A stretch of 64,000 nucleotides of DNA from a virus, in IMG/VR virus record IMGVR_UViG_3300027710_001279, positions 9,043-73,042 of that record, one strand, 5' to 3'. Shown piece by piece: positions 23,273 to 34,537 of this stretch; the stretch's first letter is position 1, and each line of letters starts with the position of its first letter. The position numbers and the translations under genes were made by a program. The notes below the pieces were generated by a model. It searched no databases. It had not been told where the DNA came from and worked only from the letters and a program-made list of their open reading frames with translations.

Positions 23273-23273
23273 A

Positions 23274-23936
23274 ATGTACGCTGTTATATCAATGCACACT
23301 CCAGACTATCAGCCATTGGCAGACTATACCTGGACTAAGAACAAATTAGAGTATACAGAACGGCACGGCTATGCCGCACACTGTAAAACTGATGATTTCA
23401 GACTGCCTAAAAATCAAGTAGGTGGAGAGAAGTTGCGTCTGTTCCGTGAATACTTTGATTCTAATCCCGGAGTAGAATGGATTTGGTGGTTAGAGACTGA
23501 TACTCTAATCACAAACTTCAATACTAAAATTGAAGATCTAATCGATAACAACTACCACTTTATTATTGGGACTGATGGCAACGGATTAAATGCAGGCAGT
23601 TTCTTTTTGCGTAATAGTCCAGAAGGTAACGCATATCTTAATTGGTTAATTTCTGTATGGCCTAAATATCAGAATCATCATTTCTATGAGCAGCAGGCTA
23701 TGATTGATAGCACAAGCATGCCTGAGTGGTCGCCTATTATCAAAGTAGAGCCACAGTATAAATTCAATGCACACGACTGCTGGCCCAATCAATGGCAACC
23801 AGGATTTGGTGTAGACAAGCTAGGAGAACGTGCTTGGTGGGAACCAGGAGATACCGTTGTACACTGGCCTGGTTCAAGTTTGCAAACAAGACTAGGAAGA
23901 CAGATCCCTTACTATATGCCCAAGGTGGTTAGATGA
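23274..23936 (+). CDS. Glycosyltransferase family 34-like
   Basis: WIWWLETDTLITN, LNAGSFFLRN, YEQQAM, VVHWPG; paralog of 18660..19319. Confidence 0.78.
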   Translation: MYAVISMHTPDYQPLADYTWTKNKLEYTERHGYAAHCKTDDFRLPKNQVGGEKLRLFREYFDSNPGVEWIWWLETDTLITNFNTKIEDLIDNNYHFIIGTDGNGLNAGSFFLRNSPEGNAYLNWLISVWPKYQNHHFYEQQAMIDSTSMPEWSPIIKVEPQYKFNAHDCWPNQWQPGFGVDKLGERAWWEPGDTVVHWPGSSLQTRLGRQIPYYMPKVVR

Positions 23937-24805
23937 GAAAAGTCTACGATTGTTTTACATTCTTTAATGAACTTGATCTTTTAGAACTTCGATTAAGTGA
24001 ATGTTATGATAGTGCAGATTATTTTGTAATTGCAGAAGCTAATAAAACATTCTCCGGTAACAACAAAAGATTTATCCTAGAAGATAATTGGGATAGATAC
24101 AAGGCATTCCACGATAAGATCATTTACATTAAAGTTGATGATATGCCCGAAGGTCCTAATGCATGGGCAAGAGAATACCATCAGCGCAATGCATTGATTC
24201 GCGGATTAGGCAATGCGGCAGACAATGATGTTGTAGCATTAACAGACTGCGATGAAGTATTACGTCCAAGAACGTTAAACATTCTACGCAACGATACAGA
24301 GCATTCAATTTGGATCTGTCGTCATCCTATGTTTTATTTTAAACTAAACTACTTAATGACACAACCTAAATCGTATCATGTTAATCCCATGGCAGTTCTT
24401 AAAAAGAATTTAACTGGTTTTCAGAATTTGCGTAATCATATGGTAGGTTGGGCATACCAACAACCGGATGATTACAACACCAACGAAGTTTGTACCATTC
24501 AGCACAGTGGTTGGCATTTTACCTATCTAGGCGATACTAAACATGCCGCAACTAAGTTGCTTAACTTTGCACACACAGAATCACAACACTGGGCCAGTAA
24601 GATTGATATCAATGAGATTATGACACGCAAAGGCGGCATTGATCCAAATAGCCCAGAAAGATTTGAATACATAGAATTAGATGAATACTTTCCAAAGACT
24701 GTATTAAACAATTTAGATCGTTGGAAAGATTACATCATCACAAATCCTGCAGTTAGCATTAAGAACTATGTGCCTTCTCTAAACTTAGATGAAATTTACA
24801 AATGA
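23933..24805 (+). CDS. Glycosyltransferase family 17
   Basis: YDCFTFFNELDLLELRL, EYHQRN, TDCDE, GWHFTY. Confidence 0.88.
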   Translation: MRKVYDCFTFFNELDLLELRLSECYDSADYFVIAEANKTFSGNNKRFILEDNWDRYKAFHDKIIYIKVDDMPEGPNAWAREYHQRNALIRGLGNAADNDVVALTDCDEVLRPRTLNILRNDTEHSIWICRHPMFYFKLNYLMTQPKSYHVNPMAVLKKNLTGFQNLRNHMVGWAYQQPDDYNTNEVCTIQHSGWHFTYLGDTKHAATKLLNFAHTESQHWASKIDINEIMTRKGGIDPNSPERFEYIELDEYFPKTVLNNLDRWKDYIITNPAVSIKNYVPSLNLDEIYK

Positions 24806-25602
24806 AAATATTAATAACCGGTGCTAGGGGATTTGTTGGAAGTTTCATTGCTAGGCATCTAGCAGAAAAACATACACTATTAACTCCTACAAGACAAGAG
24901 TTAGATCTTACAAACTTAGAACAGGTAGAGGATTGGTTCAGCAACAACGAAGTCGATGTAGTTGTGCATTGTGCGTTGAGTGGGCGCGAAGTTTTGTCTA
25001 GCACCGAACCACAATATCTAAGTGATGGTTTGTTGATGTTCCGTAATCTTTGGTTGCAAAAACCCAGATATAAAAGATTTGTACACTTGGGCACAGCCTA
25101 CGAATTTGATCTAACTAAAAATAACAACAATGTATTAGAACATGAGTTTGTTCATCACATACCAAGAACAAGTTACGGTTATGCTAAAAACATTGCGGCA
25201 AGGATTATACGAGATACACCAGGCTTTTATAACTTAAAGTTATTTGGAGTGTTTCACGAAACTGAAAGTTCTAACAGATTCTTTCAAAGGGTAAAACAAC
25301 AGGATGAAGTTATAATCAACAACGACATTTATTTGGATTACATTTATCTGCCTGACATACTACCCATGCTTGAACGCATGGTAGAAGGACACAGCCAACA
25401 TTCCGATGTTAACATGGTATACACCCATAAATATCGACTAAGTGAGATGGCAGAAATATTGTGCAACAATTTAGGTTTGCCACTAACAAAGATTAAAATT
25501 AAAAATTCAGCAGGCAATAATTTAACAGGAGACAGCGTAGTGTTGTCTAGTTATAATTTTAAACTAGTTGGATTAGAACAAGGACTAAGGAATTATAAAT
25601 GA
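24802..25602 (+). CDS. NAD-dependent epimerase/dehydratase
   Basis: TGARGFVG, YGYAK. Confidence 0.85.
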   Translation: MKILITGARGFVGSFIARHLAEKHTLLTPTRQELDLTNLEQVEDWFSNNEVDVVVHCALSGREVLSSTEPQYLSDGLLMFRNLWLQKPRYKRFVHLGTAYEFDLTKNNNNVLEHEFVHHIPRTSYGYAKNIAARIIRDTPGFYNLKLFGVFHETESSNRFFQRVKQQDEVIINNDIYLDYIYLPDILPMLERMVEGHSQHSDVNMVYTHKYRLSEMAEILCNNLGLPLTKIKIKNSAGNNLTGDSVVLSSYNFKLVGLEQGLRNYK

Positions 25603-26537
25603 AAGTTGTTTACGTTACCGGTTGTTTAGGTTTTATTGGTTACCATGTAACTAAAAAATGTCTAGACAAAGGTTGGTATGTCATAGGCGTCGACAAGGAA
25701 ACCTATGCTGCCAATCTACAGTTCTTACCAGAACTACAGGCCTACCCAAAATTTAAATATATTAAACAAGACATTCGTGACATCACATATTTGTTAGACT
25801 GTGATTATGTTATCAATACTGCCGCAGAAAGTCACGTTGACAATTCAATTGTTGGCAGTGAAGTATTCTTAAACAGTAACATCTACGGTGTTCATAATCT
25901 TTTACAAAACTTACAAAAGAATAAGTTCAAGGTTCCTACACTACTGCATTTTTCAACTGATGAAGTCTACGGTGATATTGTAGAAGGCAGTCACACTGAA
26001 ACAGATATCCTAAAGCCTAGTAACCCATACTCTGCAACCAAAGCGGCTGCTGACATGTTGATCAGTGCTTGGGCTCGTACACATAACATTCCCTGGGTTA
26101 TTGTACGCCCTACTAATAACTACGGCATTGGACAGTATGTTGAGAAGCTAATCCCCAAGGCTGTCAAATACTTGAGCATTGGTCGCAAGATTCCCCTGCA
26201 CGAAAACGGCACTCCCAGACGCACATGGTTGCATGTTAGTGACACAGCAAACGCTATCATCCATATTGTTGAAAGCGGAGTAACTGGTGAGATCTTTAAC
26301 ATCAGCGGTAACAGCGAAGACAGCAATATCAATATTGCTAAAAAGATTATTAAACAAGTCACTGGCACTGAAAACTATGATGACCATATTGACTTCAGTT
26401 GGGGACGTAAAGGACAAGATGTCCGTTACAGCATCGACGACAGTAAACTACAGGCATTAGGTTGGAAGGCACAGGCTAACTTTGATGAAGAACTGGCTAA
26501 AATTGTAGACTATTATAAAAATAACTTTGTTTGGTAA
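25599..26537 (+). CDS. rfbB: dTDP-glucose 4,6-dehydratase
   Basis: AAESHVDNSI, STDEVYG, PSNPYSATK, NNYG..QYVEKLIP. Confidence 0.93.
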   Translation: MKVVYVTGCLGFIGYHVTKKCLDKGWYVIGVDKETYAANLQFLPELQAYPKFKYIKQDIRDITYLLDCDYVINTAAESHVDNSIVGSEVFLNSNIYGVHNLLQNLQKNKFKVPTLLHFSTDEVYGDIVEGSHTETDILKPSNPYSATKAAADMLISAWARTHNIPWVIVRPTNNYGIGQYVEKLIPKAVKYLSIGRKIPLHENGTPRRTWLHVSDTANAIIHIVESGVTGEIFNISGNSEDSNINIAKKIIKQVTGTENYDDHIDFSWGRKGQDVRYSIDDSKLQALGWKAQANFDEELAKIVDYYKNNFVW

Positions 26538-26540
26538 AAT

Positions 26541-27242
26541 ATGAAAAAGAACCTTTTAATTATCCCTGCGGGACCTAATGCACTATTTCAACAGTGGAGC
26601 GACTATTCAAACTGTAATTTTGATCTAGTAGTTCTTAATTGGAGTTCTGCTCCACTGACTAACTTAGAACATGCTGCCTTTGTAGAAACTACTCCAGGAC
26701 AGAAGTGGAAAATTGTTGCAGACTTTGCCAGCAAGCAAGATTTAAGTCGTTACGAATACATTTGGATACTAGACGACGATTGCCTAACTACTCCAGAAGG
26801 TGTTGAAGCTACATTTAATTTCTGCAAGGAAAACAATTTGGATATGGCGCAACCAGCACTAACCCCGGACAGCTCCCGCACTCATCCTAGCACATTTTTA
26901 ATTCCCGGTGCAAAGATGCATATTACTGACACAGTAGAAATTATGGCACCTATCTTTAGTAAGGCAGCTTGGCCAGTATGTTCAGAACACTTTGGCAAGA
27001 TGCCAGCTGGTGTAGGTTACGGTCTTGAAGGATATTGGGCAGGTGTTCTTGACAGTAAATCAGGTACAACTAAGTTTGGTGGACAAGTAGCTGTCATTGA
27101 CTTATATCCAGTAAAGCATACAAAGACAGTAACTGGACCTGCTGAATACGCAAGAATGGGCATTAACCCAGATGATGACGGACACTACTTTGCTAATCTC
27201 GGGCACGGTTGGACATTTAACACTATTGAAGTCATAATGTGA
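26541..27242 (+). CDS. DUF707-like putative glycosyltransferase
   Basis: YEYIWILDDD, LDMAQPAL, VEIMAPIFS. Confidence 0.75.
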   Translation: MKKNLLIIPAGPNALFQQWSDYSNCNFDLVVLNWSSAPLTNLEHAAFVETTPGQKWKIVADFASKQDLSRYEYIWILDDDCLTTPEGVEATFNFCKENNLDMAQPALTPDSSRTHPSTFLIPGAKMHITDTVEIMAPIFSKAAWPVCSEHFGKMPAGVGYGLEGYWAGVLDSKSGTTKFGGQVAVIDLYPVKHTKTVTGPAEYARMGINPDDDGHYFANLGHGWTFNTIEVIM

Positions 27243-27724
27243 TTGCAATAACAGGCCATACTCAAGGCATAGGAAAATGTGCCTTTGAAAGATTGAGTCC
27301 TAACATAATAGGTTTTAGCAAGTCTACCGGATATGACATTACTAATTTTTTTGATCGTAAACGGATCATAGATGAATCTGTAAACTGTGATATCTTTATA
27401 AACAATGCTACAGCAGAGTTTGGTCAAACATTATTGTTTTTAGAATTGTTTGATGCATGGAAACATACTAATAAAACTATTATCAATGTTGGTAGTAGAA
27501 TTGCAGAAGTATTAGTATTACCAAATACTCATCAACACTTATTAAAGTATCAAGCTGAAAAACTTATTTTAAAAGAAATGAGCAATAGAGTAGTCGGGTT
27601 GTGTAAAGTTAAATATAAATGGTTTGGTTATGTAGGTACAGAAAAGATACTAAAAAAATATCCGCATTTTACAGAACAAGATTACATCACAGAAGATCAA
27701 GCAGTTAACATAATACTTTCATGA
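27239..27724 (+). CDS. Short SDR-like oxidoreductase
   Basis: ITGHTQGIG, DIFINNA, IINVGS, YQAEK. Confidence 0.7.
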   Translation: MIAITGHTQGIGKCAFERLSPNIIGFSKSTGYDITNFFDRKRIIDESVNCDIFINNATAEFGQTLLFLELFDAWKHTNKTIINVGSRIAEVLVLPNTHQHLLKYQAEKLILKEMSNRVVGLCKVKYKWFGYVGTEKILKKYPHFTEQDYITEDQAVNIILS

Positions 27725-28206
27725 TAAAAAAAGTAATAGATACTATCAACGTTGATCCTATTTTAGATAGTTTTTTTAAACTTAATAAAGATATAGTATG
27801 GACAATTTATCCGCAAGGACAGCAAGTTGGATTACAATATAAACCAAACGAAGACCATTGGTCAAGTGCAGTAGGAAAAAGTCAAGGTAAAGAACTAGAA
27901 TACACTGAATTAAATCCTTTCTTTAAAGATACAATATTCGAAACTATTATTAACCAATATAATTTAAAAAGAACTAGATTAATGTGGGTTAATCCAAAAT
28001 CATGTTATAGCTTACACCAAGATGAAACTCCAAGGATTCATATTCCATTGATTACAAACTCCGAATGTTATTTTTTATTCCCACCCGGAATGATGTTTTG
28101 CTTAGATGTAAATTCAGTATGGTGGGTAAATACAAAATTAAAACATACATTCTTAAATTGTTCAGAAGAACCAAGATTACATCTTGTTGGAGTAATTGAA
28201 AAATAA
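27721..28206 (+). CDS. Asp/Asn beta-hydroxylase-like Fe(II) oxygenase
   Basis: YSLHQD, RIHIPLITN, KHTFLN, PRLHLV. Confidence 0.75.
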   Translation: MIKKVIDTINVDPILDSFFKLNKDIVWTIYPQGQQVGLQYKPNEDHWSSAVGKSQGKELEYTELNPFFKDTIFETIINQYNLKRTRLMWVNPKSCYSLHQDETPRIHIPLITNSECYFLFPPGMMFCLDVNSVWWVNTKLKHTFLNCSEEPRLHLVGVIEK

Positions 28207-28213
28207 CCCAAAT

Positions 28214-28233
28214 GTGTTGTAAAAATACAACAC
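28214..28233. promoter_or_regulatory. Palindromic operator-like site upstream of a sigma70 promoter
   Basis: GTGTTGTA-AAAA-TACAACAC; core repeated at 28763-28778. Confidence 0.5.
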
Positions 28234-28242
28234 TAAAAGAGG

Positions 28243-28271
28243 TTGACAAGTTGGTAAAACCGTGTTATAAT
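28243..28271 (+). promoter_or_regulatory. Consensus sigma70 promoter
   Basis: TTGACA-17-TATAAT; spacer shares TGGTAAAACCGTGT with the promoter at 33871. Confidence 0.85.
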
Positions 28272-28280
28272 ATATGTAAC

Positions 28281-28466
28281 ATGATTAATATACACCCAAC
28301 ACTTAACCCACTTGAAGTTATCCTTGTCGAAGAGGATATGGCTAAAAAGGGGATTACACACTATACAATGACACAGGGCAACGACTGCATCTGGGTCTAC
28401 TATGGTCCAATGAACCTCTATTATATATTTAAAGAAGGACGTATTCATGACATCCAAATTGATTAA
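28281..28466 (+). CDS. Hypothetical phage protein
   Basis: ATG directly after the promoter. Confidence 0.6.
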   Translation: MINIHPTLNPLEVILVEEDMAKKGITHYTMTQGNDCIWVYYGPMNLYYIFKEGRIHDIQID

Positions 28467-28656
28467 AGTTATGCAAGAGACCACAGAGTGGTCCGATGGT
28501 GGCTCCAATCACACGTATATATTTAAAGATAAGCCCACAGGTCGTAGTGCCGCGGCCATTGCCTACATACCGGCAGGTTCTAAGATAGTGCAACGTTTCA
28601 AGAAGCCTATTAACTTAGACCTTAAGGGCAGGACGTTTGTAGAGTTGACAGACTGA
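28447..28656 (+). CDS. Hypothetical phage protein
   Basis: ORF track; overlaps the previous gene. Confidence 0.6.
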   Translation: MTSKLIKVMQETTEWSDGGSNHTYIFKDKPTGRSAAAIAYIPAGSKIVQRFKKPINLDLKGRTFVELTD

Positions 28657-28673
28657 TAATTTTCTAGTATAAT
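28645..28673 (+). promoter_or_regulatory. Consensus sigma70 promoter for tRNA-Arg
   Basis: TTGACA-17-TATAAT, 7 nt before the tRNA. Confidence 0.8.
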
Positions 28674-28680
28674 AAGACAA

Positions 28681-28757
28681 CTGACTGTAGCTCAACTGGA
28701 TAGAGCAACAGCCTTCTAAGCTGTAGGTCGGGGGTTCGAGTCCCTCCAGTCAGGCCA
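28681..28757 (+). tRNA. tRNA-Arg(TCT)
   Basis: Cloverleaf; ACAGC-CT-TCT-AA-GCTGT; CCA encoded. Confidence 0.95.
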
Positions 28758-28809
28758 AATTCGTTGTAAAAATACAACAAAAATAATTTGCCAAAAATGC
28801 AAAAAGTGG

Positions 28810-28838
28810 TTGACAACGAGACTAAATAAATGTATAAT
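28810..28838 (+). promoter_or_regulatory. Consensus sigma70 promoter of the leader/tRNA operon
   Basis: TTGACA-17-TATAAT with CTAAATA in the spacer. Confidence 0.85.
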
Positions 28839-28896
28839 TAACACATAGACAGCAATGATGCTGTTTATGGAAACAAAAGGTTTTAAGAGAAATAAA

Positions 28897-29043
28897 ATGC
28901 AATCGTGCAATAAACATCAACAATTTAATACGATGCCCAAACAGGCAGGTGTAATAGCCTCCAATTGGTCAACGATTGATTGTGGTAGTTTATCATATGA
29001 TCGCACACCAGAGATTACCAGGGTCCGGGAGGACTTAATGTAA
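28897..29043 (+). CDS. Putative attenuator leader peptide (48 aa, all 20 amino acids)
   Basis: MQSCNKHQQFNTMPKQAGVIASNWSTIDCGSLSYDRTPEITRVREDLM*; AAGAGA SD-like; 3' end inside the antiterminator. Confidence 0.6.
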   Translation: MQSCNKHQQFNTMPKQAGVIASNWSTIDCGSLSYDRTPEITRVREDLM

Positions 29044-29078
29044 ATGTAAGTTTACACTTAAACTCCAAGGACCCTAGG
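29018..29078 (+). promoter_or_regulatory. Antiterminator hairpin
   Basis: CCAGGGTCCGGGAG pairs with CTCCAAGGACCCTAGG; inner TTAA-TGTAAA/TTTACA-TTAA stem. Confidence 0.7.
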
Positions 29079-29105
29079 ATTAAAACCCTGGGGTTTTTTG
29101 TTTTT
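29071..29105 (+). terminator. Intrinsic terminator, mutually exclusive with the antiterminator
   Basis: ACCCTAGG-attaaaac-CCTGGGGT followed by TTTTTGTTTTT. Confidence 0.85.
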
Positions 29106-29117
29106 GGAAAAAGAAAA

Positions 29118-29279
29118 ATGATAGAACAAGATAAGAAGAAACAACGAGAAGTTGAGTTTATACAACAGTATACTCTATCCAAAGAAGATTTTCGTAAGAT
29201 GGTCTTAGAAAAGATGGAACGTGCTAAGGTATATAGTCAAGCCGTTAGAAAGCGCGAGATTGCTCAAGAGCGATTGTAG
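29118..29279 (+). CDS. Small charged helical protein (53 aa, not in ORF track)
   Basis: MIEQDKKKQREVEFIQQYTLSKEDFRKMVLEKMERAKVYSQAVRKREIAQERL*. Confidence 0.55.
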   Translation: MIEQDKKKQREVEFIQQYTLSKEDFRKMVLEKMERAKVYSQAVRKREIAQERL

Positions 29280-29498
29280 ACCGCAAAGTGTGAATAGGTA
29301 GCAACGCGAGCTACGGGATGCACTTAAAACATGTCTCAAATGGGCGGCAACTAGGATGGAATCCCTTGTGTGGGACTAAAAATCAGTTCGTATTAAAGCA
29401 TTCTTTAAGAACAGGCAGCCTAAGTATTTTAGAGTGCTTTAATACACACTCTCTACTTCCGTTGACTGGAAGGACAGGGCACGTAGTGCCGAGAGTGT
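29280..29498 (+). ncRNA. Unidentified structured RNA(s)
   Basis: GTATTAAAGCATTCT/AGAGTGCTTTAATAC stem (29390-29445); three-way junction ACACTCTC/GAGAGTGT enclosing CTTCC/GGAAG and GGCAC/GTGCC. Confidence 0.4.
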
Positions 29499-29508
29499 TA
29501 TCTATTTT

Positions 29509-29595
29509 GGAGATGTAGGAAAATTGGTAACCCCAGTGGACTGTAAATCCGCCGCCCGAAAGGCACTACTGGTTCGACTCCAGTCGTCTCCACCA
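29509..29595 (+). tRNA. tRNA-Tyr(GTA)
   Basis: GTGGA-CT-GTA-AA-TCCGC; long variable arm; CCA. Confidence 0.93.
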
Positions 29596-29600
29596 AATTT

Positions 29601-29675
29601 GGTCCCATAGTATAGCGGTAAGTATAGCGGCTTGTCACGCCGTCGGCAGGGGTTCGATTCCCCTTGGGACCGCCA
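29601..29675 (+). tRNA. tRNA-Asp(GTC)
   Basis: GCGGC-TT-GTC-AC-GCCGT; CCA. Confidence 0.95.
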
Positions 29676-29681
29676 AATTAT

Positions 29682-29756
29682 GCTCGGTTCGTCTATCGGT
29701 AAGGACGCTAGCCTTTCAAGTTGGAAAGACGGGTTCGATTCCCGTACCGAGTACCA
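29682..29756 (+). tRNA. tRNA-Glu(TTC)
   Basis: CTAGC-CT-TTC-AA-GTTGG; CCA. Confidence 0.93.
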
Positions 29757-29763
29757 AATAATA

Positions 29764-29853
29764 GGAAGCGTGGCAGAGTCCGGCTTATTGCAACAGTCTT
29801 GAAAACTGTCGGCTCGAAAGGGTCCGTGAGTTCGAATCTCACCGCTTCCACCA
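29764..29853 (+). tRNA. tRNA-Ser(TGA)
   Basis: ACAGT-CT-TGA-AA-ACTGT; long variable arm; CCA. Confidence 0.95.
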
Positions 29854-29860
29854 AAAGAGG

Positions 29861-29888
29861 TTGACATTCTACTTAATTCGTGTATAAT
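29861..29888 (+). promoter_or_regulatory. sigma70 promoter inside the tRNA array
   Basis: TTGACA-16-TATAAT. Confidence 0.75.
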
Positions 29889-29895
29889 TATATAT

Positions 29896-30009
29896 GCGAC
29901 CGTAAGTGGAATATGGCAGACCTCCCGCTATGCTCATAGCATAGAATGGGGACGGGGCGATGAGTCTAACTCGCAGCCTTTGCAGGTTCAAGCCCTGCCG
30001 GTCGTACCA
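29896..30009 (+). ncRNA. Aberrant 114-nt tRNA-like RNA
   Basis: Acceptor GCGACCG/CGGTCGT-ACCA and T arm GCAGG-TTCAAGC-CCTGC are normal; central arms are enlarged (CTATG-CTCATAG-CATAG; GAGT-CTA-ACTC). Confidence 0.7.
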
Positions 30010-30013
30010 AATT

Positions 30014-30104
30014 CGAGAGTGGGCAGGATGGTAATGCAGCTGATTGCTAATCAGTAGACCAGCTTAAAACTGGTCACAGGGTTCGACTCCCTGACTCTCG
30101 GCCA
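30014..30104 (+). tRNA. tRNA-Ser(GCT)
   Basis: GCTGA-TT-GCT-AA-TCAGT; long variable arm; G73-CCA. Confidence 0.93.
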
Positions 30105-30108
30105 ATTT

Positions 30109-30182
30109 GTATCCCTGGTGTAATGGCAGCACCGCGGTCTCCAAAACCGTCAGTCAAGGTTCGAGTCCTTGGGGGTACGCCA
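30109..30182 (+). tRNA. tRNA-Trp(CCA)
   Basis: GCGGT-CT-CCA-AA-ACCGT; CCA. Confidence 0.95.
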
Positions 30183-30188
30183 ATCAAC

Positions 30189-30265
30189 GGTGACCATAGT
30201 GTAAAGGTTTAGCACCGCACTCTGTGAAAGTGCTAGAATGGGATCGTTCCCCATTGGTTACCCCA
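30189..30265 (+). tRNA. tRNA-His(GTG)
   Basis: GCACT-CT-GTG-AA-AGTGC; G-1:C73; atypical T loop ATCGTTC. Confidence 0.9.
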
Positions 30266-30275
30266 AGGAGCTATA

Positions 30276-30686
30276 ATGGAAAAACTAAAAACATTCAATA
30301 TTTTGAAAGGTTCTGTTCGCAGGTTCGATGAACTGCTAGGACGAACATTGTATCGTGTATCTGCAGATGAGGCAGAACTAACATTGTATCTGTCGGATAC
30401 AAACTATGTAAGATTCTGTCACCACCAAGATTGTTGCGAAAGTGTTTACATAGAAGATATCTGTGGAGATCTCAACGACCTTGTTGGGGCACCTCTAGTA
30501 GAAGCTGAAGAAGTTTCTAACTATGATGATGGCCCAGTAGATAGTAGCGATGAATCTTACACATGGACATTTTATCGTTTCCGCACACGGAAAGGTAGTG
30601 TGTCAGTTCGATGGTATGGGTCCAGCAATGGATACTATTCCGAAAGTGTCAGCGTAGAATTTGTTGACACTACAATACCCGGATAG
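30276..30686 (+). CDS. Hypothetical phage protein within the tRNA array
   Basis: AAGGAG SD; HHQDCCESVYIED...WYGSSNGYYSE; stop codon lies inside tRNA-Ile. Confidence 0.75.
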   Translation: MEKLKTFNILKGSVRRFDELLGRTLYRVSADEAELTLYLSDTNYVRFCHHQDCCESVYIEDICGDLNDLVGAPLVEAEEVSNYDDGPVDSSDESYTWTFYRFRTRKGSVSVRWYGSSNGYYSESVSVEFVDTTIPG

Positions 30687-30751
30687 CTCAGTGGTAGAGC
30701 AGCGCCTTGATAAGGCGTTGGTCGCAAGTTCAAATCTTGCTCCGGGTACCA
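30677..30751 (+). tRNA. tRNA-Ile(GAT)
   Basis: GCGCC-TT-GAT-AA-GGCGT; CCA. Confidence 0.95.
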
Positions 30752-30755
30752 ATTT

Positions 30756-30830
30756 ACCGCTGTCGTATAATGGAGTATACCCCTCGCTACGAACGAGGAA
30801 ATGGAGGTTCGATTCCTTCCGGCGGTACCA
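30756..30830 (+). tRNA. tRNA-Arg(ACG)
   Basis: CCTCG-CT-ACG-AA-CGAGG; CCA. Confidence 0.93.
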
Positions 30831-30836
30831 AATAAT

Positions 30837-30912
30837 GGGACCATAGCTCAGTTGGTAGAGCAGTAGACTTTTAATCTATTGGTCGGGAGTTCGAATCTCC
30901 CTGGTCCTACCA
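30837..30912 (+). tRNA. tRNA-Lys(TTT)
   Basis: GTAGA-CT-TTT-AA-TCTAT; CCA. Confidence 0.95.
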
Positions 30913-30916
30913 TAAC

Positions 30917-30992
30917 AGACATATAGCATAGTGGCTAATGCAGTTCCTTCATACGGAAAAGATCGTTGGTTCAAGTCCAACTATGTCTACCA
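30917..30992 (+). tRNA. tRNA with CAT anticodon (elongator Met, or Ile2 if lysidinylated)
   Basis: TTCC-TT-CAT-AC-GGAA; CCA. Confidence 0.88.
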
Positions 30993-30999
30993 ATTCAAT

Positions 31000-31075
31000 A
31001 CCAACTTAGCTGATGTGGTCATAGCAACGGTTTGAAGCACCGTGGAATGAGGTTCGATCCCTCAAGTTGGTACCA
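31000..31075 (+). tRNA. tRNA-Phe(GAA)
   Basis: ACGGT-TT-GAA-GC-ACCGT; CCA. Confidence 0.92.
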
Positions 31076-31082
31076 AGTTTGT

Positions 31083-31156
31083 TCCCGGATAGTGTAGTGG
31101 TAACACAACAGACTTTGACTCTGCTATTGTAGGTTCGATTCCTACTCCGGGTGCCA
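31083..31156 (+). tRNA. tRNA-Gln(TTG)
   Basis: CAGA-CT-TTG-AC-TCTG; CCA. Confidence 0.93.
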
Positions 31157-31177
31157 CAAAAATGTTTTAAAAAACCG

Positions 31178-31206
31178 TTGACAGATCTTAAAAAAGACTG
31201 TATAAT
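31178..31206 (+). promoter_or_regulatory. Consensus sigma70 promoter inside the tRNA array
   Basis: TTGACA-17-TATAAT. Confidence 0.85.
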
Positions 31207-31213
31207 AATTACT

Positions 31214-31244
31214 TGTTAAGCAATTAACACCGTTCTTTAAAAAT
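31214..31244 (+). promoter_or_regulatory. rrn-like boxB-boxA antitermination element
   Basis: TGTTAA-GCAA-TTAACA GNRA hairpin then CGTTCTTTAAAAAT, right after the promoter. Confidence 0.6.
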
Positions 31245-31258
31245 ATAATTTGATATTT

Positions 31259-31345
31259 GCCCGAGTGGTGAAATAGGTAGACACAAGAGACTTAAAATCT
31301 CTCGCTCTAACAGGCGTGCCGGTTCGATTCCGGCCTCGGGTACCA
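31259..31345 (+). tRNA. tRNA-Leu(TAA)
   Basis: AGAGA-CT-TAA-AA-TCTCT; long variable arm; CCA. Confidence 0.95.
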
Positions 31346-31512
31346 TTAGTTGATAGCATTCAGTGGGTATCGTATATGGACGCATATACTAGGCGGGCTA
31401 GTCGGGCCATCGATCAGTCCTAACACAACCACAGCAATGGCTTAGGAAGGGAAGCACCCGACTCCAAAATTCGCTCGTCGTCATAGACTGTGAATACTAT
31501 CAACTAATGGTA
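31341..31512 (+). ncRNA. Unidentified ~170-nt RNA closed by a ~22-bp stem
   Basis: TACCATTAGTTGATAGCATTCA pairs with TGAATACTATCAACTAATGGTA; GC-rich interior. Confidence 0.5.
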
Positions 31513-31518
31513 TTAAAT

Positions 31519-31594
31519 GTCCCGTTCGTCTAGAGGCCTAGGACACCACCCTTTCACGGTGACTACACCAGTTCGAATCTGGTACGGGACGCCA
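31519..31594 (+). tRNA. tRNA-Glu(TTC), second divergent copy
   Basis: CACC-CT-TTC-AC-GGTG; CCA. Confidence 0.95.
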
Positions 31595-31602
31595 AAGTTT
31601 TA

Positions 31603-31692
31603 CCCGCAGTAGCTCAAGGAGAGCAGGTCGGCTTATATCCGATTAATCTAGATAAGGTCCAGGATGGGGTTCGATTCCTCACTGCGGGACCA
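31603..31692 (+). tRNA. tRNA-Ile(TAT) with long variable arm
   Basis: CCCGCAG/CTGCGGG-ACCA; GTCGG-CT-TAT-AT-CCGAT; ~20-nt variable region. Confidence 0.75.
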
Positions 31693-31721
31693 TTGACAGT
31701 TTATAAATATTCTGTTATAAT
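31693..31721 (+). promoter_or_regulatory. sigma70 promoter with nested TATAAATA
   Basis: TTGACA-17-TATAAT; TATAAATA at 31702-31709. Confidence 0.8.
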
Positions 31722-31729
31722 AGTTTTAT

Positions 31730-31806
31730 GCCCAGGTGATGGAATTGGTATACGTGTTGGTCTTAGAAGCCAAATTTTGCGAGTTCGAGTCTCGCCCTGG
31801 GCACCA
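31730..31806 (+). tRNA. tRNA-Leu(TAG) lacking the long variable arm
   Basis: TTGGT-CT-TAG-AA-GCCAA; 5-nt variable loop; CCA. Confidence 0.9.
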
Positions 31807-31888
31807 TATTGAAGCACATTAAAGATAGGGTCGTAGCGGTTCTATGAACTTTAATACATACCAAGGTAGTTAGTGTGTTTCAATATGG
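31804..31888 (+). other. Long spacer hairpin between tRNAs
   Basis: CCATATTGAAGCACA/TGTGTTTCAATATGG. Confidence 0.55.
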
Positions 31889-31962
31889 GGGTGTAGCTCA
31901 GTTGGGAGAGCGCCAGCTTTGCAAGCTGGATGTCGCAGGTTCGATCCCTGTCACCTCCACCA
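31887..31962 (+). tRNA. tRNA-Ala(TGC)
   Basis: CCAGC-TT-TGC-AA-GCTGG; G3:U70; CCA. Confidence 0.95.
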
Positions 31963-31968
31963 GTTTAT

Positions 31969-32044
31969 TCCCTAGTAGCTCAGCGGTAGAAGCACCTGAC
32001 TGTTAATCAGGGTGTCGGTGGTTCGATCCCACCCTGGGGAGCCA
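31969..32044 (+). tRNA. tRNA-Asn(GTT)
   Basis: CCTGA-CT-GTT-AA-TCAGG; CCA. Confidence 0.95.
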
Positions 32045-32064
32045 GTTTTTTTAAGGATTTAAAT

Positions 32065-32241
32065 ATGTCAAAAGGTAGTAGCCCTAGGCCATATAGTGTT
32101 AGCCAAAAACAATTTGCTAATAACTTTGATGCAATTTTTCGCAAGCCTGATCCTAGGATAGTCGAAGAACAACAAATTGAAGATGAAGAATTCGAAAGAA
32201 TTGCTCAATCAAGTCAAGTTAAAGATACTACAAAAGATTAA
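32065..32241 (+). CDS. Small hypothetical protein (58 aa, not in ORF track)
   Basis: AAGGA SD; MSKGSSPRPYSVSQKQFANNFDAIFRK... Confidence 0.65.
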   Translation: MSKGSSPRPYSVSQKQFANNFDAIFRKPDPRIVEEQQIEDEEFERIAQSSQVKDTTKD

Positions 32242-32249
32242 TAATTAAA

Positions 32250-32324
32250 GCCGACTTAGCACAGTGGTAGTGCAATCGCCTTGTAAGCGATAGGTCATCA
32301 GTTCGAATCCGATAGTCGGCACCA
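32250..32324 (+). tRNA. tRNA-Thr(TGT)
   Basis: ATCGC-CT-TGT-AA-GCGAT; CCA. Confidence 0.94.
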
Positions 32325-32327
32325 AAT

Positions 32328-32401
32328 GCGGGGTTAGTTTAATGGTAAAACAGCAGATTTCCAATCTTCGGTCGAGAGTTCGATTCTCTCACTCCGCTCC
32401 A
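32328..32401 (+). tRNA. tRNA-Gly(TCC)
   Basis: AGA-TT-TCC-AA-TCT; U73-CCA. Confidence 0.92.
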
Positions 32402-32407
32402 ATTTTC

Positions 32408-32483
32408 GGGTCGTTAGCTCAGTTGGTAGAGCGCCTGCCTTACACGCAGGATGTCGGCAGTTCGAGCCTGTCACGACCCACCA
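32408..32483 (+). tRNA. tRNA-Val(TAC)
   Basis: CCTGC-CT-TAC-AC-GCAGG; CCA. Confidence 0.95.
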
Positions 32484-32489
32484 GTATTT

Positions 32490-32566
32490 CGGAGTGTAGC
32501 ACAGCCTGGTAGTGCGCCTGGTTTGGGACCAGGAGGTCCAAGGTTCGAATCCTTGTACTCCGACCA
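32490..32566 (+). tRNA. tRNA-Pro(TGG)
   Basis: CCTGG-TT-TGG-GA-CCAGG; CCA. Confidence 0.95.
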
Positions 32567-32575
32567 AGTTTTGTA

Positions 32576-32856
32576 AGACACATGGGTTGACCACAACGCC
32601 ACGCATCAAGGTAAGGTGTCTATAGTGTAAGTAGCAGGTTTGGTCATGCTTACACACAATCCCAACGTTCCGGGTGTCTCCGGATAGTGTGACCCACACG
32701 ATGAGAAGTAGTGTGACAACTACGGGTGGTAGTCTTTAAACCGAAAGGCCGCTAGCAATGCGAGAACGGTCCCTGTCGGGAAGCGGGTGGAAGGAGTGTG
32801 TGATGGGTATGATAGCGTCATATCTTGATACTCTATAATTACCGCCGGGGGATGCA
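32576..32856 (+). ncRNA. Unidentified ~280-nt multi-hairpin RNA
   Basis: Stems AGACAC/GTGTCT, GTGTAAGTA/TGCTTACAC, TCCGG/CCGGA, GTGTG/CACAC, GTAGT/ACTAC, CC-GAAA-GG, GGGTATGA/TCATATCT; no credible ORF. Confidence 0.55.
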
Positions 32857-32859
32857 GAG

Positions 32860-32927
32860 CATATATAAACACACTCTAGCCAAACGGCAACAAGTGGGCT
32901 CATGCCCATGAAGTGTGTTTATATATG
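32860..32927 (+). other. Long spacer hairpin
   Basis: CATATATAAACACACT/AGTGTGTTTATATATG, perfect 16 bp. Confidence 0.6.
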
Positions 32928-32942
32928 TTTTGGGAGAATTAT

Positions 32943-33095
32943 ATGCCAATGTATGAGACAACTGTAAGAACACCACAGGGTGAAGAAAAGAAAAGAATCT
33001 ATGCGGATACTCCGCAAGAAGCTAAAAAACTTTTTGAACAACTGTACGGTGGACCAAGAGCAGTGCCATACATACCGCATATAATTCCAAGTTAA
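32943..33095 (+). CDS. Small hypothetical phage protein
   Basis: GGAG SD; MPMYETTVRTPQGEEKKRIYADTPQEAKKLFEQLYGG. Confidence 0.7.
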   Translation: MPMYETTVRTPQGEEKKRIYADTPQEAKKLFEQLYGGPRAVPYIPHIIPS

Positions 33096-33099
33096 TTAT

Positions 33100-33178
33100 C
33101 GCGGGGTAGGGGAGTCTAGTCGTCCCCGCCAGTCTCATAAGCTGGAGATCGGAGGTGCGAATCCTTCCCCCGCAACCA
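33100..33178 (+). tRNA. tRNA-Met(CAT), initiator-like
   Basis: CGCGGGG/CCCCGCA with C1:A72 mismatch; CT-CAT-AA; lacks the canonical 3 G-C anticodon pairs; T loop TGCGAAT. Confidence 0.85.
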
Positions 33179-33201
33179 TTTTTTTAAACGTAAAGGTATA
33201 T

Positions 33202-33432
33202 ATGGCTATTAAACAACTAAGTCGCGGTACAACAATTGACACTGAAACATGTGTAGAAATGGTCGGGGGCAATCGATTTGATCTAGTATTGATTGCGGCT
33301 GTTAGAGCTAGAGAACTAGCACGTCAACATCGCCATGCTGAAAACAAAGGGCAGTTAAATGCTCCTGTAGCCGCTTTGCTTGATATCCAAGAAGGCAGAG
33401 TTGGTAACGAATATCTTAAAAGAATTCGTTAA
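33202..33432 (+). CDS. rpoZ: RNA polymerase omega subunit homolog
   Basis: CVEMVGGNRFDLVLIAAVRAREL...PVAALLDIQEG matches the omega NRF.LV..AA.RARQ and P.V.AL.EI..G motifs. Confidence 0.85.
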   Translation: MAIKQLSRGTTIDTETCVEMVGGNRFDLVLIAAVRARELARQHRHAENKGQLNAPVAALLDIQEGRVGNEYLKRIR

Positions 33433-33438
33433 TTAAAT

Positions 33439-33516
33439 GCAACGGTGGCAGAGCGGCCCAATGCAACGGATTGCAAATCCGTAAAACCGGGGGTTCAAAT
33501 CCCTCCCGTTGCTCCA
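33439..33516 (+). tRNA. tRNA-Cys(GCA)
   Basis: ACGGA-TT-GCA-AA-TCCGT; U73-CCA. Confidence 0.94.
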
Positions 33517-33540
33517 ATATCAAATTATAAATATTTTAAT

Positions 33541-33614
33541 GCGGGTATGATGTAAAGGTAACCTGAAACCTTGCCAAGGTTTATTTCCGAGTTCGATTCT
33601 CGGTACCCGCTCCA
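33541..33614 (+). tRNA. tRNA-Gly(GCC)
   Basis: AAACC-TT-GCC-AA-GGTTT; U73-CCA. Confidence 0.92.
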
Positions 33615-33647
33615 AACAACACGGCCCTACCCTCTAGTAACATAGTT

Positions 33648-33854
33648 CTACGGTGGGGTTTTTCTTTTTGCGTTATATAATCTTTCTTTGATTTCGTTGC
33701 GGACAATGTAGTCTGTGGAAGCGATTCTTGCCAACCACCCAGATAATAGCCCACGTTGATAGATTAATGTTTCCATTTTATCGCCCTTATAACAGAGTTC
33801 GAGTAACTCGTCGAGCTCTTTTTGGATCTCTTCAAGGTGGGTTTTTGGCTTCAT
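33648..33854 (-). CDS. Hypothetical protein
   Basis: ORF preceded by TATAAATA on the minus strand. Confidence 0.55.
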   Translation of the reverse strand: MKPKTHLEEIQKELDELLELCYKGDKMETLIYQRGLLSGWLARIASTDYIVRNEIKERLYNAKRKTPP

Positions 33855-33870
33855 AATATATATTTATAGG

Positions 33871-33899
33871 TTGACAAACTGGTAAAACCGTGTTATAAT
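33871..33899 (+). promoter_or_regulatory. Consensus sigma70 promoter
   Basis: TTGACA-17-TATAAT, near-duplicate of the 28243 promoter. Confidence 0.85.
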
Positions 33900-33923
33900 A
33901 TATACATAGCAAGGAGCAATATA

Positions 33924-34322
33924 ATGGAATTTCTCGTCGAAACTCGTAGCGTAAAGAAACGTAAATTTATAGAGGCAATTTTGCCCTCTATGATTAAACA
34001 ACTTAAATTGGAAAACAGTAAGAAAGTTTTGCTGGTTCGAGTTGCCAATGAGTGCGATGGACAGGGTATGACTATGCCACTGAATGGATTAGATGCCTAT
34101 GTCGTAGTTGTCAAGCCAGGTTGGTTTGCCGATATGGGTGTTACCCTTGCACACGAGATGGTTCACGTGCGTCAAATGGCCAAAGGTATTCTCAAAGTAG
34201 AAAATGGTGTTAACTACTGGCGTGGGAAGAAATACAGCAAGAAGACTAAGTATTTGGACATGCCTTGGGAACAAGATGCGTTTTCAAAGCAAGAACTTAT
34301 TTTTAGGAGGGCTGTAGAATAA
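33924..34322 (+). CDS. Zincin-like (HExxH) phage protein
   Basis: TLAHEMVHVRQ...PWEQDA. Confidence 0.75.
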   Translation: MEFLVETRSVKKRKFIEAILPSMIKQLKLENSKKVLLVRVANECDGQGMTMPLNGLDAYVVVVKPGWFADMGVTLAHEMVHVRQMAKGILKVENGVNYWRGKKYSKKTKYLDMPWEQDAFSKQELIFRRAVE

Positions 34323-34528
34323 TGGAAATCTCAAGAGCAGAACAAAGTGTTATAAAATATAATCTAGAACAGTACCGCTTAGATCAAGCTCGTTTGGAAA
34401 AACAGCGAGAACAAGACTACGCCAAAAAGATTGAAGAACGTAGACTTGATCAAGTTATAGCAGAACGAGTATCAAGAAATCTTCGTTTAGATTTGGACAA
34501 GGGTCGCATTTTAGATATAGAATGTTAG
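34322..34528 (+). CDS. Hypothetical coiled-coil protein
   Basis: ORF track; translationally coupled. Confidence 0.6.
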   Translation: MEISRAEQSVIKYNLEQYRLDQARLEKQREQDYAKKIEERRLDQVIAERVSRNLRLDLDKGRILDIEC

Positions 34529-34537
34529 GAGGCAATT

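What the first reader, a model, noticed from the sequence alone, without database searches (positions are those of the whole stretch)
28810..29105. All-20-amino-acid leader peptide attenuator at the head of a phage tRNA array
Seen: a consensus sigma70 promoter (28810-28838) precedes a 48-codon ORF (28897-29043). The ORF contains all 20 amino acids and 34 different codons, spread across synonyms (Ser TCG/TCC/TCA/AGT; Arg CGC/AGG/CGG; Thr ACG/ACA/ACC; Ile ATA/ATT). Its last codons (CCAGGGTCCGGGAG, 29018-29031) pair with 29063-29078 in a long hairpin with the stop codon near the apex. Bases 29071-29078 are also the 5' arm of an intrinsic terminator (ACCCTAGG/CCTGGGGT plus U-tract), so the two structures are mutually exclusive. 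Established: this is the logic of trp/his-type attenuation, but classical leaders are enriched in one amino acid and control biosynthetic genes. Inference: a ribosome reaching the stop masks the antiterminator arm and transcription terminates, while a stall at almost any codon (tRNA cleavage by host defence, starvation) allows read-through into the tRNA genes. That would be a general translation-health sensor for phage tRNA supply. Caveat: internal promoters at 29861, 31178 and 31693 mean only the first block (53-aa ORF, structured RNA, Tyr/Asp/Glu/Ser tRNAs) depends solely on it.
Basis: partly seen in the sequence, partly recalled or inferred. Interest (0 to 1): 0.92.

Follow-up and report, generated by a model that had tools for sequence, protein, structure and literature searches.

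The report
All-amino-acid leader switch before phage tRNAs
An uncultured freshwater giant phage and over a hundred relatives place a tiny gene containing all 20 amino acids inside a stop/go transcription switch ahead of their tRNA genes, so they probably make more tRNA when ribosomes read that gene too slowly.

Summary
Window 28810-29105 has a consensus promoter, a 5' hairpin, a 48-codon ORF, a long hairpin and an intrinsic terminator. The 3' strand of the hairpin (29069-29075) overlaps the terminator's 5' arm.

- I collected 112 unique full-length relatives from uncultured viral contigs. All 112 keep an ATG ORF of 42-53 codons whose stop lies in the apical hairpin.
- 97 of 110 unique peptides contain all 20 amino acids. 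The background is 2-4%, and the neighbouring small ORFs reach it in 3 of 70.
- Cys, His and Tyr each occur mostly once but at changing positions.
- The antiterminator hairpin is supported by compensatory changes.
- 103 of 112 elements have a same-strand tRNA array 185-1171 nt downstream. The other 9 have 20-581 nt of downstream sequence.

Best reading (about 0.6): this is a ribosome-mediated attenuator. Completed leader translation permits termination, and slow or stalled translation gives read-through. Function is inferred, not shown.

The closest known system is the whiB7 uORF attenuator of Actinobacteria, so I class this as a new variant of a known kind. This scan has already found the same family on other genomes, with similar conclusions.

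The parts
28810..28838 (+). Sigma-70 consensus promoter (TTGACA, 17 nt, TATAAT).
   Evidence: One search scored it 12 of 12. A TTGAC-N17-20-TAnAAT match was a selection criterion for the 112 unique elements. Among the 127 unique stretches, 12 had no such match, several of them truncated.
28846..28867 (+). 5'-terminal hairpin of the transcript.
   Evidence: folds it with 9 pairs. In the alignment the stem sequence differs between relatives while pairing is kept (seen by eye, not counted).
28868..28896 (+). A-rich translation initiation region with a weak GAG/AGAG Shine-Dalgarno.
   Evidence: the leader's start region resembles that of the phage's long ORFs, of which 20 of 52 have no SD-like core at all. 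In 18 of 111 relatives the ATG lies 6-10 nt after the -10 box, which implies leaderless mRNA.
28897..29043 (+). Leader ORF of 48 codons plus TAA. It holds all 20 amino acids and 34 distinct codons.
28999..29016 (+). Nearly nucleotide-invariant 18-mer (codons D-R-T-P-E-I) just 5' of segment A. Its role is unexplained.
   Evidence: GAT 106 of 106, ACA 98 of 98, CCA 94 of 102, GAG 93 of 95, ATT 79 of 79.
29020..29026 (+). Segment A, the 5' strand of antiterminator helix P1 (AGGGTCC). It lies inside the ORF.
   Evidence: It is read in two different frames in different relatives.
29028..29066 (+). Inner antiterminator. P2 pairs GGAG (29028-29031) with CTCC (29063-29066). P3 is the variable apical hairpin 29035-29061, which holds the stop codon 29041-29043.
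29069..29075 (+). Segment B, the 3' strand of P1 (GGACCCT). Its bases 29071-29075 are shared with the terminator's 5' arm.
29067..29105 (+). Intrinsic terminator: arms 29071-29078 and 29087-29094, followed by a T-tract.
   Evidence: Terminator pairs are canonical in 102 of 102 unique segments at each of the 8 positions. Part of this invariance comes from the search pattern.
29118..29279 (+). First read-through cargo: a 53-aa charged helical ORF.
   Evidence: 70 of 112 relatives have an ATG ORF of 44-66 codons starting within 30 nt after the terminator. It has no Pfam or PHROGs family.
29280..29508 (+). Second cargo: a conserved structured non-coding segment.
   Evidence: blastn matches in 71 of 107 relatives; z = -3.1; no Rfam family.
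29509..29853 (+). First tRNA block (Tyr, Asp, Glu, Ser-tga). No strong promoter lies between the terminator and this block.

Best explanation
This is a ribosome-mediated transcription attenuator that reports how well the infected cell can translate a test gene holding every amino acid.

Transcription starts at the consensus promoter. The nascent RNA carries a 42-53-codon ORF.

- If a ribosome follows the polymerase closely and reaches the stop codon, it occupies P3, P2 and the 3' end of segment A. Segment B is left free. B then pairs with the downstream arm, the terminator forms, and a roughly 255-nt leader RNA is released.
- If the ribosome is absent, late, or stalled at any of the first 37-40 codons, A pairs with B as soon as B is made. 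The more stable antiterminator forms, and the polymerase reads through.
- A stall could come from a missing, uncharged or cleaved tRNA, from starvation, or from a translation inhibitor.
- Read-through reaches a small protein gene, a conserved structured RNA and the tRNA array.

Because every amino acid is represented, shortage of any one of them would raise tRNA transcription. This would give negative feedback on tRNA supply.

Shown: the conserved anatomy, selection for an open all-20 ORF, covariation of the antiterminator, the geometry, and the position at the head of tRNA arrays.
Inferred: that the ORF is translated, that the terminator works, and the direction of the response.
For: 1. ORF kept open.
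- 76 of 76 loci found by peptide and 112 of 112 unique full-length elements, many found by nucleotide pattern alone, have the ORF.
- Frames +1 and +2 are stop-free in 2 of 111 and 0 of 111.
- 6.0 stop-creating variants were expected among 153 observed variants, and 0 were seen.
- Frame-shifting indels around segment A are compensated, so the same TAA is reached.
- In 18 of 111 the ATG sits 6-10 nt after the -10 box.

2. All 20 amino acids.
- 97 of 110 unique peptides have all 20, 11 have 19 and 2 have 18. The background is 2.4-4.3%.
- Neighbouring small ORFs have all 20 in 3 of 70.
- Among 21 divergent representatives, 14 have all 20, against 1.15-1.19 expected when the changed residues are redrawn at random.
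- Cys occurs exactly once in 94 of 110, at 8 or more alignment columns. His occurs once in 92 and Tyr once in 88.
- 86 of 111 have all 20 within the codons 5' of segment A.

3. The switch.
- The antiterminator averages -26.0 kcal/mol and the terminator -15.9.
- The P1 closing pair is A-U in 50, G-C in 43, G-U in 4 and other in 5 of 102.
- In phylogenetically independent pairs the partner changed the same way in 6.2 and the opposite way in 0.0 of 9 (median p 0.03).
- On the model-fitted alignment 91.3% of cells pair, against 84.6 +/- 0.4 when shuffled (0 of 500). 11 of 16 pairs show changes on both sides. Slid controls pair in at most 56%.
- Native inner hairpins average -10.0 kcal/mol, chimeras -6.7 and shuffles -3.2.

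4. Geometry.
- The stop lies 15-19 nt after segment A in 103 of 111 and 21-32 nt before segment B in all 111.
- Constrained folds give the antiterminator for the free RNA in 88 of 112, the terminator with a block at the stop in 108 of 112, and the antiterminator with a block at codon 20 in 88 of 112 (window alone).

5. Context.
- 103 of 112 have a same-strand tRNA 185-1171 nt downstream. The other 9 have 20-581 nt of downstream sequence.
- 79 of 103 have no promoter scoring 11 of 12 or better in between.

6. Codon level.
- The window's leader samples 24 of the phage's 26 anticodon species. The background is 19.6 +/- 2.0, and 24 or more occurs in 0.6% of windows.

7. Precedent.
- In the whiB7 system, efficient uORF translation gives termination, and uORF composition decides which starvations are sensed (PMC10274678, passages read).
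Against: - There is no direct evidence of translation, termination or regulated read-through. The metatranscriptome data were contigs only and cannot show RNA ends or strand.
- In 24 of 103 relatives a promoter scoring 11-12 of 12 lies just before the first tRNA. The window's array also has further perfect promoters at 29861, 31178, 31693 and 33871. Much tRNA transcription is therefore independent of the switch.
- In 23 of 112 the free RNA's minimum-energy fold is already the terminator.
- Synonymous sites are unusually conserved. The same codon is used at 75-87% of identical residues, against 49-61% in the neighbouring ORF. No conserved structure was found in the ORF body to explain this. The RNA or peptide may have a further function.
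- The six inner P1 pairs never vary, partly because my search patterns required them. P1 therefore rests on one covarying pair plus the frame-independent conservation of segment A.
- The alignment used was fitted to the structure and contains 4 antisense rows out of 94.
- The Shine-Dalgarno is weak.
Confidence: 0.62

Rival explanations
1. This is a stand-alone small gene, encoding either a functional 48-aa peptide or a stable roughly 255-nt regulatory RNA, or both as with rnTrpL/peTrpL. It has its own promoter and terminator. Its place before the tRNA array is synteny only, and read-through is not regulated.
For: - The peptide core (W at 98%, DRTPE at 85-95%) and many synonymous sites are conserved.
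- A protective 5' hairpin and a strong terminator would give a stable RNA.
- 24 of 103 relatives have a promoter right before the first tRNA.
- Leader-like contigs are present in four metatranscriptome runs (weak evidence).
Against: - An ordinary small protein does not need all 20 amino acids. The neighbouring small ORFs have all 20 in 3 of 70.
- Cys, His and Tyr change position while their copy number stays at one.
- The C-terminus is read in two frames.
- The antiterminator overlapping the terminator covaries.
- The stop is held at a fixed distance from segments A and B.
- It matches no Pfam or PHROGs family.
Confidence: 0.17
2. It is an attenuator, but it senses something other than the general aminoacyl-tRNA supply. 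One option is a nascent-peptide arrest at the conserved W...DRTPE motif, with or without a ligand, as in TnaC or SecM. Another is polymerase-ribosome coupling set by nucleotide levels, as in pyrBI.
For: - W and DRTPE are conserved just before segment A.
- A block with codon 38 in the A site gives the terminator fold in the window. An arrest there would therefore lock termination.
- The invariant 18-mer 28999-29016 is unexplained.
Against: - This does not explain the all-20 property or the changing positions of the single-copy residues.
- DRTPE is conserved at the nucleotide level too, which an arrest peptide does not need.
- Some divergent members lack the motif yet keep the architecture, for example L282, L286 and L306.
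Confidence: 0.1
3. It is a purely non-coding cis-regulator, such as a riboswitch or a T-box-like tRNA sensor. The open frame would be incidental.
For: - Conservation is strong at the nucleotide level, and codon-position periodicity is weak (entropy 0.47, 0.42 and 0.58 at positions 1, 2 and 3).
- The whole unit folds with z = -5.7.
Against: - The ORF is open in 112 of 112 while the other frames are closed.
- Indels restore the frame.
- A leaderless ATG is present in 18 of 111.
- The all-20 property is maintained.
- No conserved structure was found in the ORF body.
- No Rfam family, T-box included, matches at E <= 1.
Confidence: 0.03

Closest known systems
whiB7 / wblC uORF transcription attenuator of Actinobacteria (PMC10274678; passages read)
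   Same: Both have a long, compositionally diverse uORF in the 5' leader. Efficient uORF translation lets a rho-independent terminator form, and translation stress lets an antiterminator form and gives read-through. In whiB7 the uORF's amino-acid content decides which starvations are sensed, as shown with Trp-less and His-less variants. [quoted passage not shown]
   Different: - The whiB7 uORF varies greatly between species, is specifically Ala-enriched, and lacks several amino acids in M. tuberculosis. Here all 20 are kept in 97 of 110, with no Ala enrichment.
- The cargo here is a small ORF, a structured RNA and tRNA genes of a phage, not a transcription factor.
- I saw no sequence relationship. 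I did not compare the sequences directly. Rfam gave no match.
Leader-peptide attenuators of enterobacterial amino-acid operons (trpL, hisL, leuL, pheL). The description is from established knowledge. Only listings and abstract starts of PMC3082878 and PMC4046918 were seen.
   Same: All have a promoter-proximal short ORF and mutually exclusive antiterminator and terminator helices. A ribosome at the stop codon masks the antiterminator's 5' strand.
   Different: - Those leaders carry runs of one cognate codon and control biosynthetic genes.
- They have a 1:2 hairpin that gives termination when the leader is untranslated.
- Here every amino acid is present, mostly once to three times. No 1:2 hairpin was found, and the untranslated RNA is predicted to read through (88 of 112).
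pyrBI attenuator of E. coli (recalled, not read here)
   Same: It has a 44-codon leader, and the outcome depends on how closely the ribosome follows the polymerase.
   Different: In pyrBI the close ribosome disrupts the terminator and causes read-through. Here the stop codon lies 21-32 nt before segment B, so the ribosome cannot reach the terminator and should favour termination.
T-box riboswitches (recalled; Rfam models searched)
   Same: They are leader RNAs with an antiterminator/terminator choice that respond to tRNA charging.
   Different: T-boxes bind one uncharged tRNA directly and need no ORF. No T-box model matched. Here an ORF is conserved.

Membership tests
Ribosome-mediated leader-peptide attenuator (trp/his class) | A short ORF with a start site directly downstream of the promoter. 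| tested here: met
   an ORF of 42-53 codons is present in 112 of 112. It has either an A-rich start region or a leaderless ATG.
Ribosome-mediated leader-peptide attenuator (trp/his class) | Mutually exclusive antiterminator and intrinsic terminator. | tested here: met
   Bases 29071-29075 are shared by the two helices, and covariation supports the antiterminator.
Ribosome-mediated leader-peptide attenuator (trp/his class) | The ribosome's position on the leader decides which helix forms. | not testable with these tools
   The geometry and constrained folds are consistent with this. No functional data exist.
Ribosome-mediated leader-peptide attenuator (trp/his class) | A run of codons for one cognate amino acid. 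| tested here: not met
   all 20 amino acids are present, and the rare ones mostly occur once.
Ribosome-mediated leader-peptide attenuator (trp/his class) | An upstream 1:2 hairpin that causes termination when the leader is not translated. | tested here: not met
   no conserved structure was found in the ORF body; the free RNA folds as the antiterminator in 88 of 112.
whiB7/wblC-type uORF attenuator | A long, diverse uORF whose efficient translation favours a rho-independent terminator. | tested here: inconclusive
   The architecture agrees. The response itself has not been measured.
whiB7/wblC-type uORF attenuator | Ala-enriched uORF upstream of a WhiB-family regulator in Actinobacteria. | tested here: not met
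   Ala occurs once or twice in 64 of 110 peptides; the downstream genes are a small ORF, a structured RNA and tRNAs. The element is found on phage contigs.
T-box riboswitch | A match to the T-box covariance model. | tested here: not met
   only tRNA and chance-level matches at E <= 1 in 28000-37000.
Known protein families (Pfam-A, PHROGs) | A profile match to the 48-aa product. | tested here: not met
   0 families at E <= 0.01.

The most novel reading that the evidence does not exclude
The leader is a probe set at the level of codons and tRNA isoacceptors, not only of amino acids. On this reading each conserved codon, including rare ones such as ACG, TCG, AGA, ATA, AGG and CGG, is kept because it samples one particular tRNA species of the combined host and phage pool.

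This would explain the frozen synonymous sites, and the 24 of 26 phage anticodon species sampled in the window. The switch would then act as a tripwire against host tRNA-cleaving defences, and as a homeostat for the phage's own tRNA output.

The SD-like GGAG followed by RTG-TAA at the ORF's end could hold the terminating ribosome long enough for the terminator to form. The released roughly 255-nt leader RNA might act in trans.
Probability: 0.25. Interest if true: 0.95.

Novelty: new variant of a known kind. Interest (0 to 1): 0.82.

Why it matters
Phage tRNA arrays are usually discussed as codon-usage compensation or as a counter to tRNA-targeting host defences. How their expression is controlled is largely unknown. 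Four full-text searches found no description of a leader-peptide switch before phage tRNA genes.

A leader ORF kept by selection to hold every amino acid would be a compact, general read-out of decoding capacity wired directly to tRNA supply. It turns the question 'do phages sense the state of the host's translation apparatus?' into simple reporter and in-vitro experiments.

It is also a natural design for a pan-amino-acid translation-stress sensor. It extends the whiB7 principle from an actinobacterial stress regulon to phage tRNA genes.

Tried and rejected
- RNAalifold on MAFFT alignments. On the whole unit it found only the terminator. On 93 antiterminator segments it found nothing, and on a 37-row subset it gave a shifted helix. 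MAFFT puts the AGGGTCC and GGGGTCC variants one column out of register. I replaced this with motif-anchored counts and a covariance-model alignment. In one search my anchors were off by one, and one search corrects it.
- RNAalifold on the codon-aligned ORF body gave no structure.
- Rfam at E <= 1 gave nothing on the + strand of 28846-29105.
- Cultured phages (INPHARED). No relative was found by blastn of 28600-29600 (only tRNA hits), megablast of 20000-28600, tblastn of the peptide, or blastn of 28990-29105 (4 chance-level hits).
- Pfam and PHROGs gave no family for the leader or the 53-aa ORF.
- Genome contigs pattern scan. Of 8 hits, 7 are unrelated terminators. One is a true member, on a 6.2-kb contig binned with a Polynucleobacter MAG. 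This is only a weak host hint.
- Sequencing runs. 6 RNA runs held small shares. The 4 I laid are contigs. They cover the leader, and some bridge the terminator. They show neither strand, ends nor transcription. The low depth in the bin just after the terminator is not evidence.
- A T-box-like tRNA sensor, and pairing of the invariant 18-mer with other conserved segments, were considered by eye only. Nothing convincing was found.
- Not used: structure prediction, complex prediction, the search for homologous proteins, the search of protein representatives and the protein-atlas search. They would not bear on the question.
- Supplements of PMC10274678 were not opened. They list uORF sequences and could refine the comparison.

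Full report
**What is there.** The window is part of a 73-kb viral contig estimated to be 20% complete. Relatives lie on contigs of up to 383 kb, so this is a giant phage of uncultured, mostly lake-water origin. At 28810-28838 there is a perfect TTGACA-17-TATAAT promoter. The predicted transcript begins with a 9-bp hairpin at 28846-28867, followed by an A-rich stretch. The ORF at 28897-29043 has 48 codons. Its last third runs into a three-tier hairpin:
- P1 pairs 29020-29026 with 29069-29075.
- P2 pairs 29028-29031 with 29063-29066.
- P3 spans 29035-29061, and the stop codon 29041-29043 lies in its 5' arm.

The terminator (arms 29071-29078 and 29087-29094, then a T-run) shares 29071-29075 with P1. 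ARAGORN finds 28 tRNA genes, 27 of them at or after 29509.

**The family.** A peptide-seeded scan of viral contigs gave 76 loci. After removing duplicates there were 127 unique stretches. I dropped 15 of them: rows with less than 340 nt upstream, rows without a promoter match, and L001, which is the window's own copy. This left 112 unique full-length elements. No relative exists in 50,697 cultured-phage records. One relative sits on a 6.2-kb contig binned with a Polynucleobacter MAG.

**The ORF is maintained.**
- All 76 peptide-found loci and all 112 unique elements have an ATG ORF of 42-53 codons ending between segments A and B.
- Frames +1 and +2 carry 2.8 and 4.4 stops on average and are open in 2 and 0 of 111.
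- Of 153 distinct single-base variants of consensus codons, 6.0 were expected to create a stop and none does.
- One group of relatives has 2 extra bases before GGGTCC and 1 after it. Segment A is then read as G-S instead of R-V, yet the same TAA is reached. Segment A is therefore conserved as RNA and the frame is conserved as a frame.
- In 18 of 111 the 5' hairpin is missing and the ATG lies 6-10 nt after the -10 box, as in leaderless mRNA.
- The Shine-Dalgarno is weak, but so are those of the phage's long genes.

**All 20 amino acids are kept by selection.**
- 97 of 110 unique peptides have all 20, 11 have 19 and 2 have 18.
- The background is 2.4% of real 48-aa windows of this phage's proteins and 4.3% of random draws.
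- The small ORFs next door (48-61 aa) have all 20 in 3 of 70.
- At 50% identity the peptides form 14 clusters. Eight are mostly all-20 and the rest have 19.
- For 21 divergent representatives I kept the residues shared with the window and redrew the rest at random. This predicts 1.15-1.19 all-20 peptides, and 14 were observed.
- Cys is present exactly once in 94 of 110 but at 8 or more alignment columns. His is present once in 92, at 8 or more columns. Tyr is present once in 88, mainly at column 41 or 29. Trp is present once in 99.
- 86 of 111 fit all 20 into the roughly 40 codons 5' of segment A.

**The switch.**
- Folded alone, the antiterminator averages -26.0 kcal/mol and the terminator -15.9.
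- The P1 closing pair is A-U in 50, G-C in 43, G-U in 4 and non-pairing in 5 of 102 unique segments.
- I built a tree from the upstream part only. On it, 9 well-supported independent pairs differ at the 5' base, and the partner changed the same way in 6.2 and the opposite way in 0.0 (median p 0.03).
- The other six P1 pairs never vary, partly because my patterns required them.
- A covariance model aligned 94 matches, 4 of them antisense.
- On that alignment 91.3% of cells pair, against 84.6 +/- 0.4 after shuffling (0 of 500).
- 11 of 16 pairs show changes on both sides.
- The covariation score is 0.252 against 0.138 after shuffling, and slid partners pair in 16-56%. This alignment leans towards the structure.
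- As an independent control, native inner hairpins average -10.0 kcal/mol, chimeras of two relatives -6.7 and shuffles -3.2.

**Geometry and predicted behaviour.**
- The stop begins 15-19 nt after segment A in 103 of 111 and ends 21-32 nt before segment B in all 111. A terminating ribosome should therefore cover P3, P2 and the edge of A, but not B.
- The free RNA's minimum-energy fold is the antiterminator in 88 of 112 and the terminator in 23.
- A 29-nt block at the stop codon gives the terminator in 108 of 112.
- Blocks at codons 10, 20 and 30 give the antiterminator in 80, 88 and 91 of 112.
- In the window, blocks at codons 15-36 keep the antiterminator and blocks at codons 38-40 give the terminator.

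**Context.**
- 103 of 112 have a same-strand tRNA 185-1171 nt (median 429) after the terminator. The other 9 have only 20-581 nt of downstream sequence (one search gives 73 of 76 for the first set).
- Upstream tRNAs occur only in the window, L002 and L004.
- 79 of 103 have no promoter scoring 11 of 12 or better in the gap. The other 24 have one, often about 38 nt before the first tRNA.
- The gap usually holds a 44-66-codon ORF (70 of 112) and a conserved structured segment (71 of 107).

**Unexplained conservation.**
- Codon-position entropy is nearly flat, at 0.47, 0.42 and 0.58.
- Conserved residues use almost a single codon each.
- For the same genome pairs, identical residues share the codon in 75-87% of cases in the leader, against 49-61% in the neighbouring ORF.
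- No conserved structure was found in the ORF body.
- The window's leader samples 24 of the phage's 26 anticodon species (background 19.6 +/- 2.0). It uses several codons that are rare in the phage's own genes. Selection on codon identity is therefore possible.

**Comparison with what is known.** Four full-text searches found no such phage element (listings and abstract starts only). I read passages of PMC10274678.
- In whiB7, efficient uORF translation gives a rho-independent terminator and translation stress gives an antiterminator.
- The M. smegmatis uORF has every amino acid but Cys.
- Trp-less and His-less uORFs lose the matching response.

The logic is therefore established in whiB7. What is new here is the strict maintenance of all 20 amino acids, the tRNA cargo and the phage setting.

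This scan has already reported the same family on other genomes, with similar conclusions. I reached mine from my own calls before reading those notes.

**Verdict.** I class it as a new variant of a known kind, of high interest.

Noticed in passing
window 29280-29508: A conserved structured non-coding segment lies between the small ORF and tRNA-Tyr. It has blastn matches in 71 of 107 relatives' downstream regions. Its fold has z = -3.1. No Rfam family matches. It is probably a new RNA made on read-through.
   Followed up: partly
window 29118-29279: A 53-aa charged helical ORF starts about 20 nt after the terminator. 70 of 112 relatives have a 44-66-codon ORF at that place, in two sequence types that share a ...KLIQDKFERA...-like core. 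It has no Pfam or PHROGs family.
   Followed up: partly
window 29028-29043: An SD-like GGAG, then a 4-10 nt spacer, then ATG/GTG/TTG as the last sense codon and the stop. This looks like a minimal 'start-stop' site and occurs in 55 of 93 unique segments. The stop is TAA in 88 and TAG in 5, and never TGA. It might hold the terminating ribosome.
   Followed up: partly
window 28999-29016: The 18-mer GATCGCACACCAGAGATT is almost invariant at all three codon positions across the family. I found no pairing partner for it.
   Followed up: partly
L282, L296, L297, L302, L304 and others (18 of 111 unique elements): This variant class has no 5' hairpin, and the ATG lies 6-10 nt after the -10 box, which suggests leaderless leader mRNAs.
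   Followed up: partly
window 29021-29036: Segment A can also pair locally with GGACTT at 29031-29036. This small hairpin appears in constrained folds with blocks at codon 5 and codon 38. Whether it is conserved was not counted.
   Followed up: no
window 28243-33899: Seven perfect 12-of-12 sigma-70 promoters lie on the + strand, starting at 28243, 28645, 28810, 29861, 31178, 31693 and 33871. Only two + strand terminators lie in the tRNA region, at 29067-29098 and 33794-33819.
   Followed up: no
window 30276-30686: A 136-aa DUF7448 protein (PF24240, E = 4e-29; phrog_2650) sits among the tRNA genes. Relatives occur in 179 viral stretches.
   Followed up: no
window 31603-31692: ARAGORN calls a 90-nt tRNA-Ile with anticodon TAT. 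The leader family keeps an ATA codon at one column (45 of 45 Ile there).
   Followed up: no
L355 1339-1406 and L356 1882-1949: Two MAG contigs (Verrucomicrobiota, Kiritimatiellia) share a conserved sequence that ends in a similar GGGTCC...GGACCCCGG terminator. It is unrelated to this family and I did not identify it.
   Followed up: no
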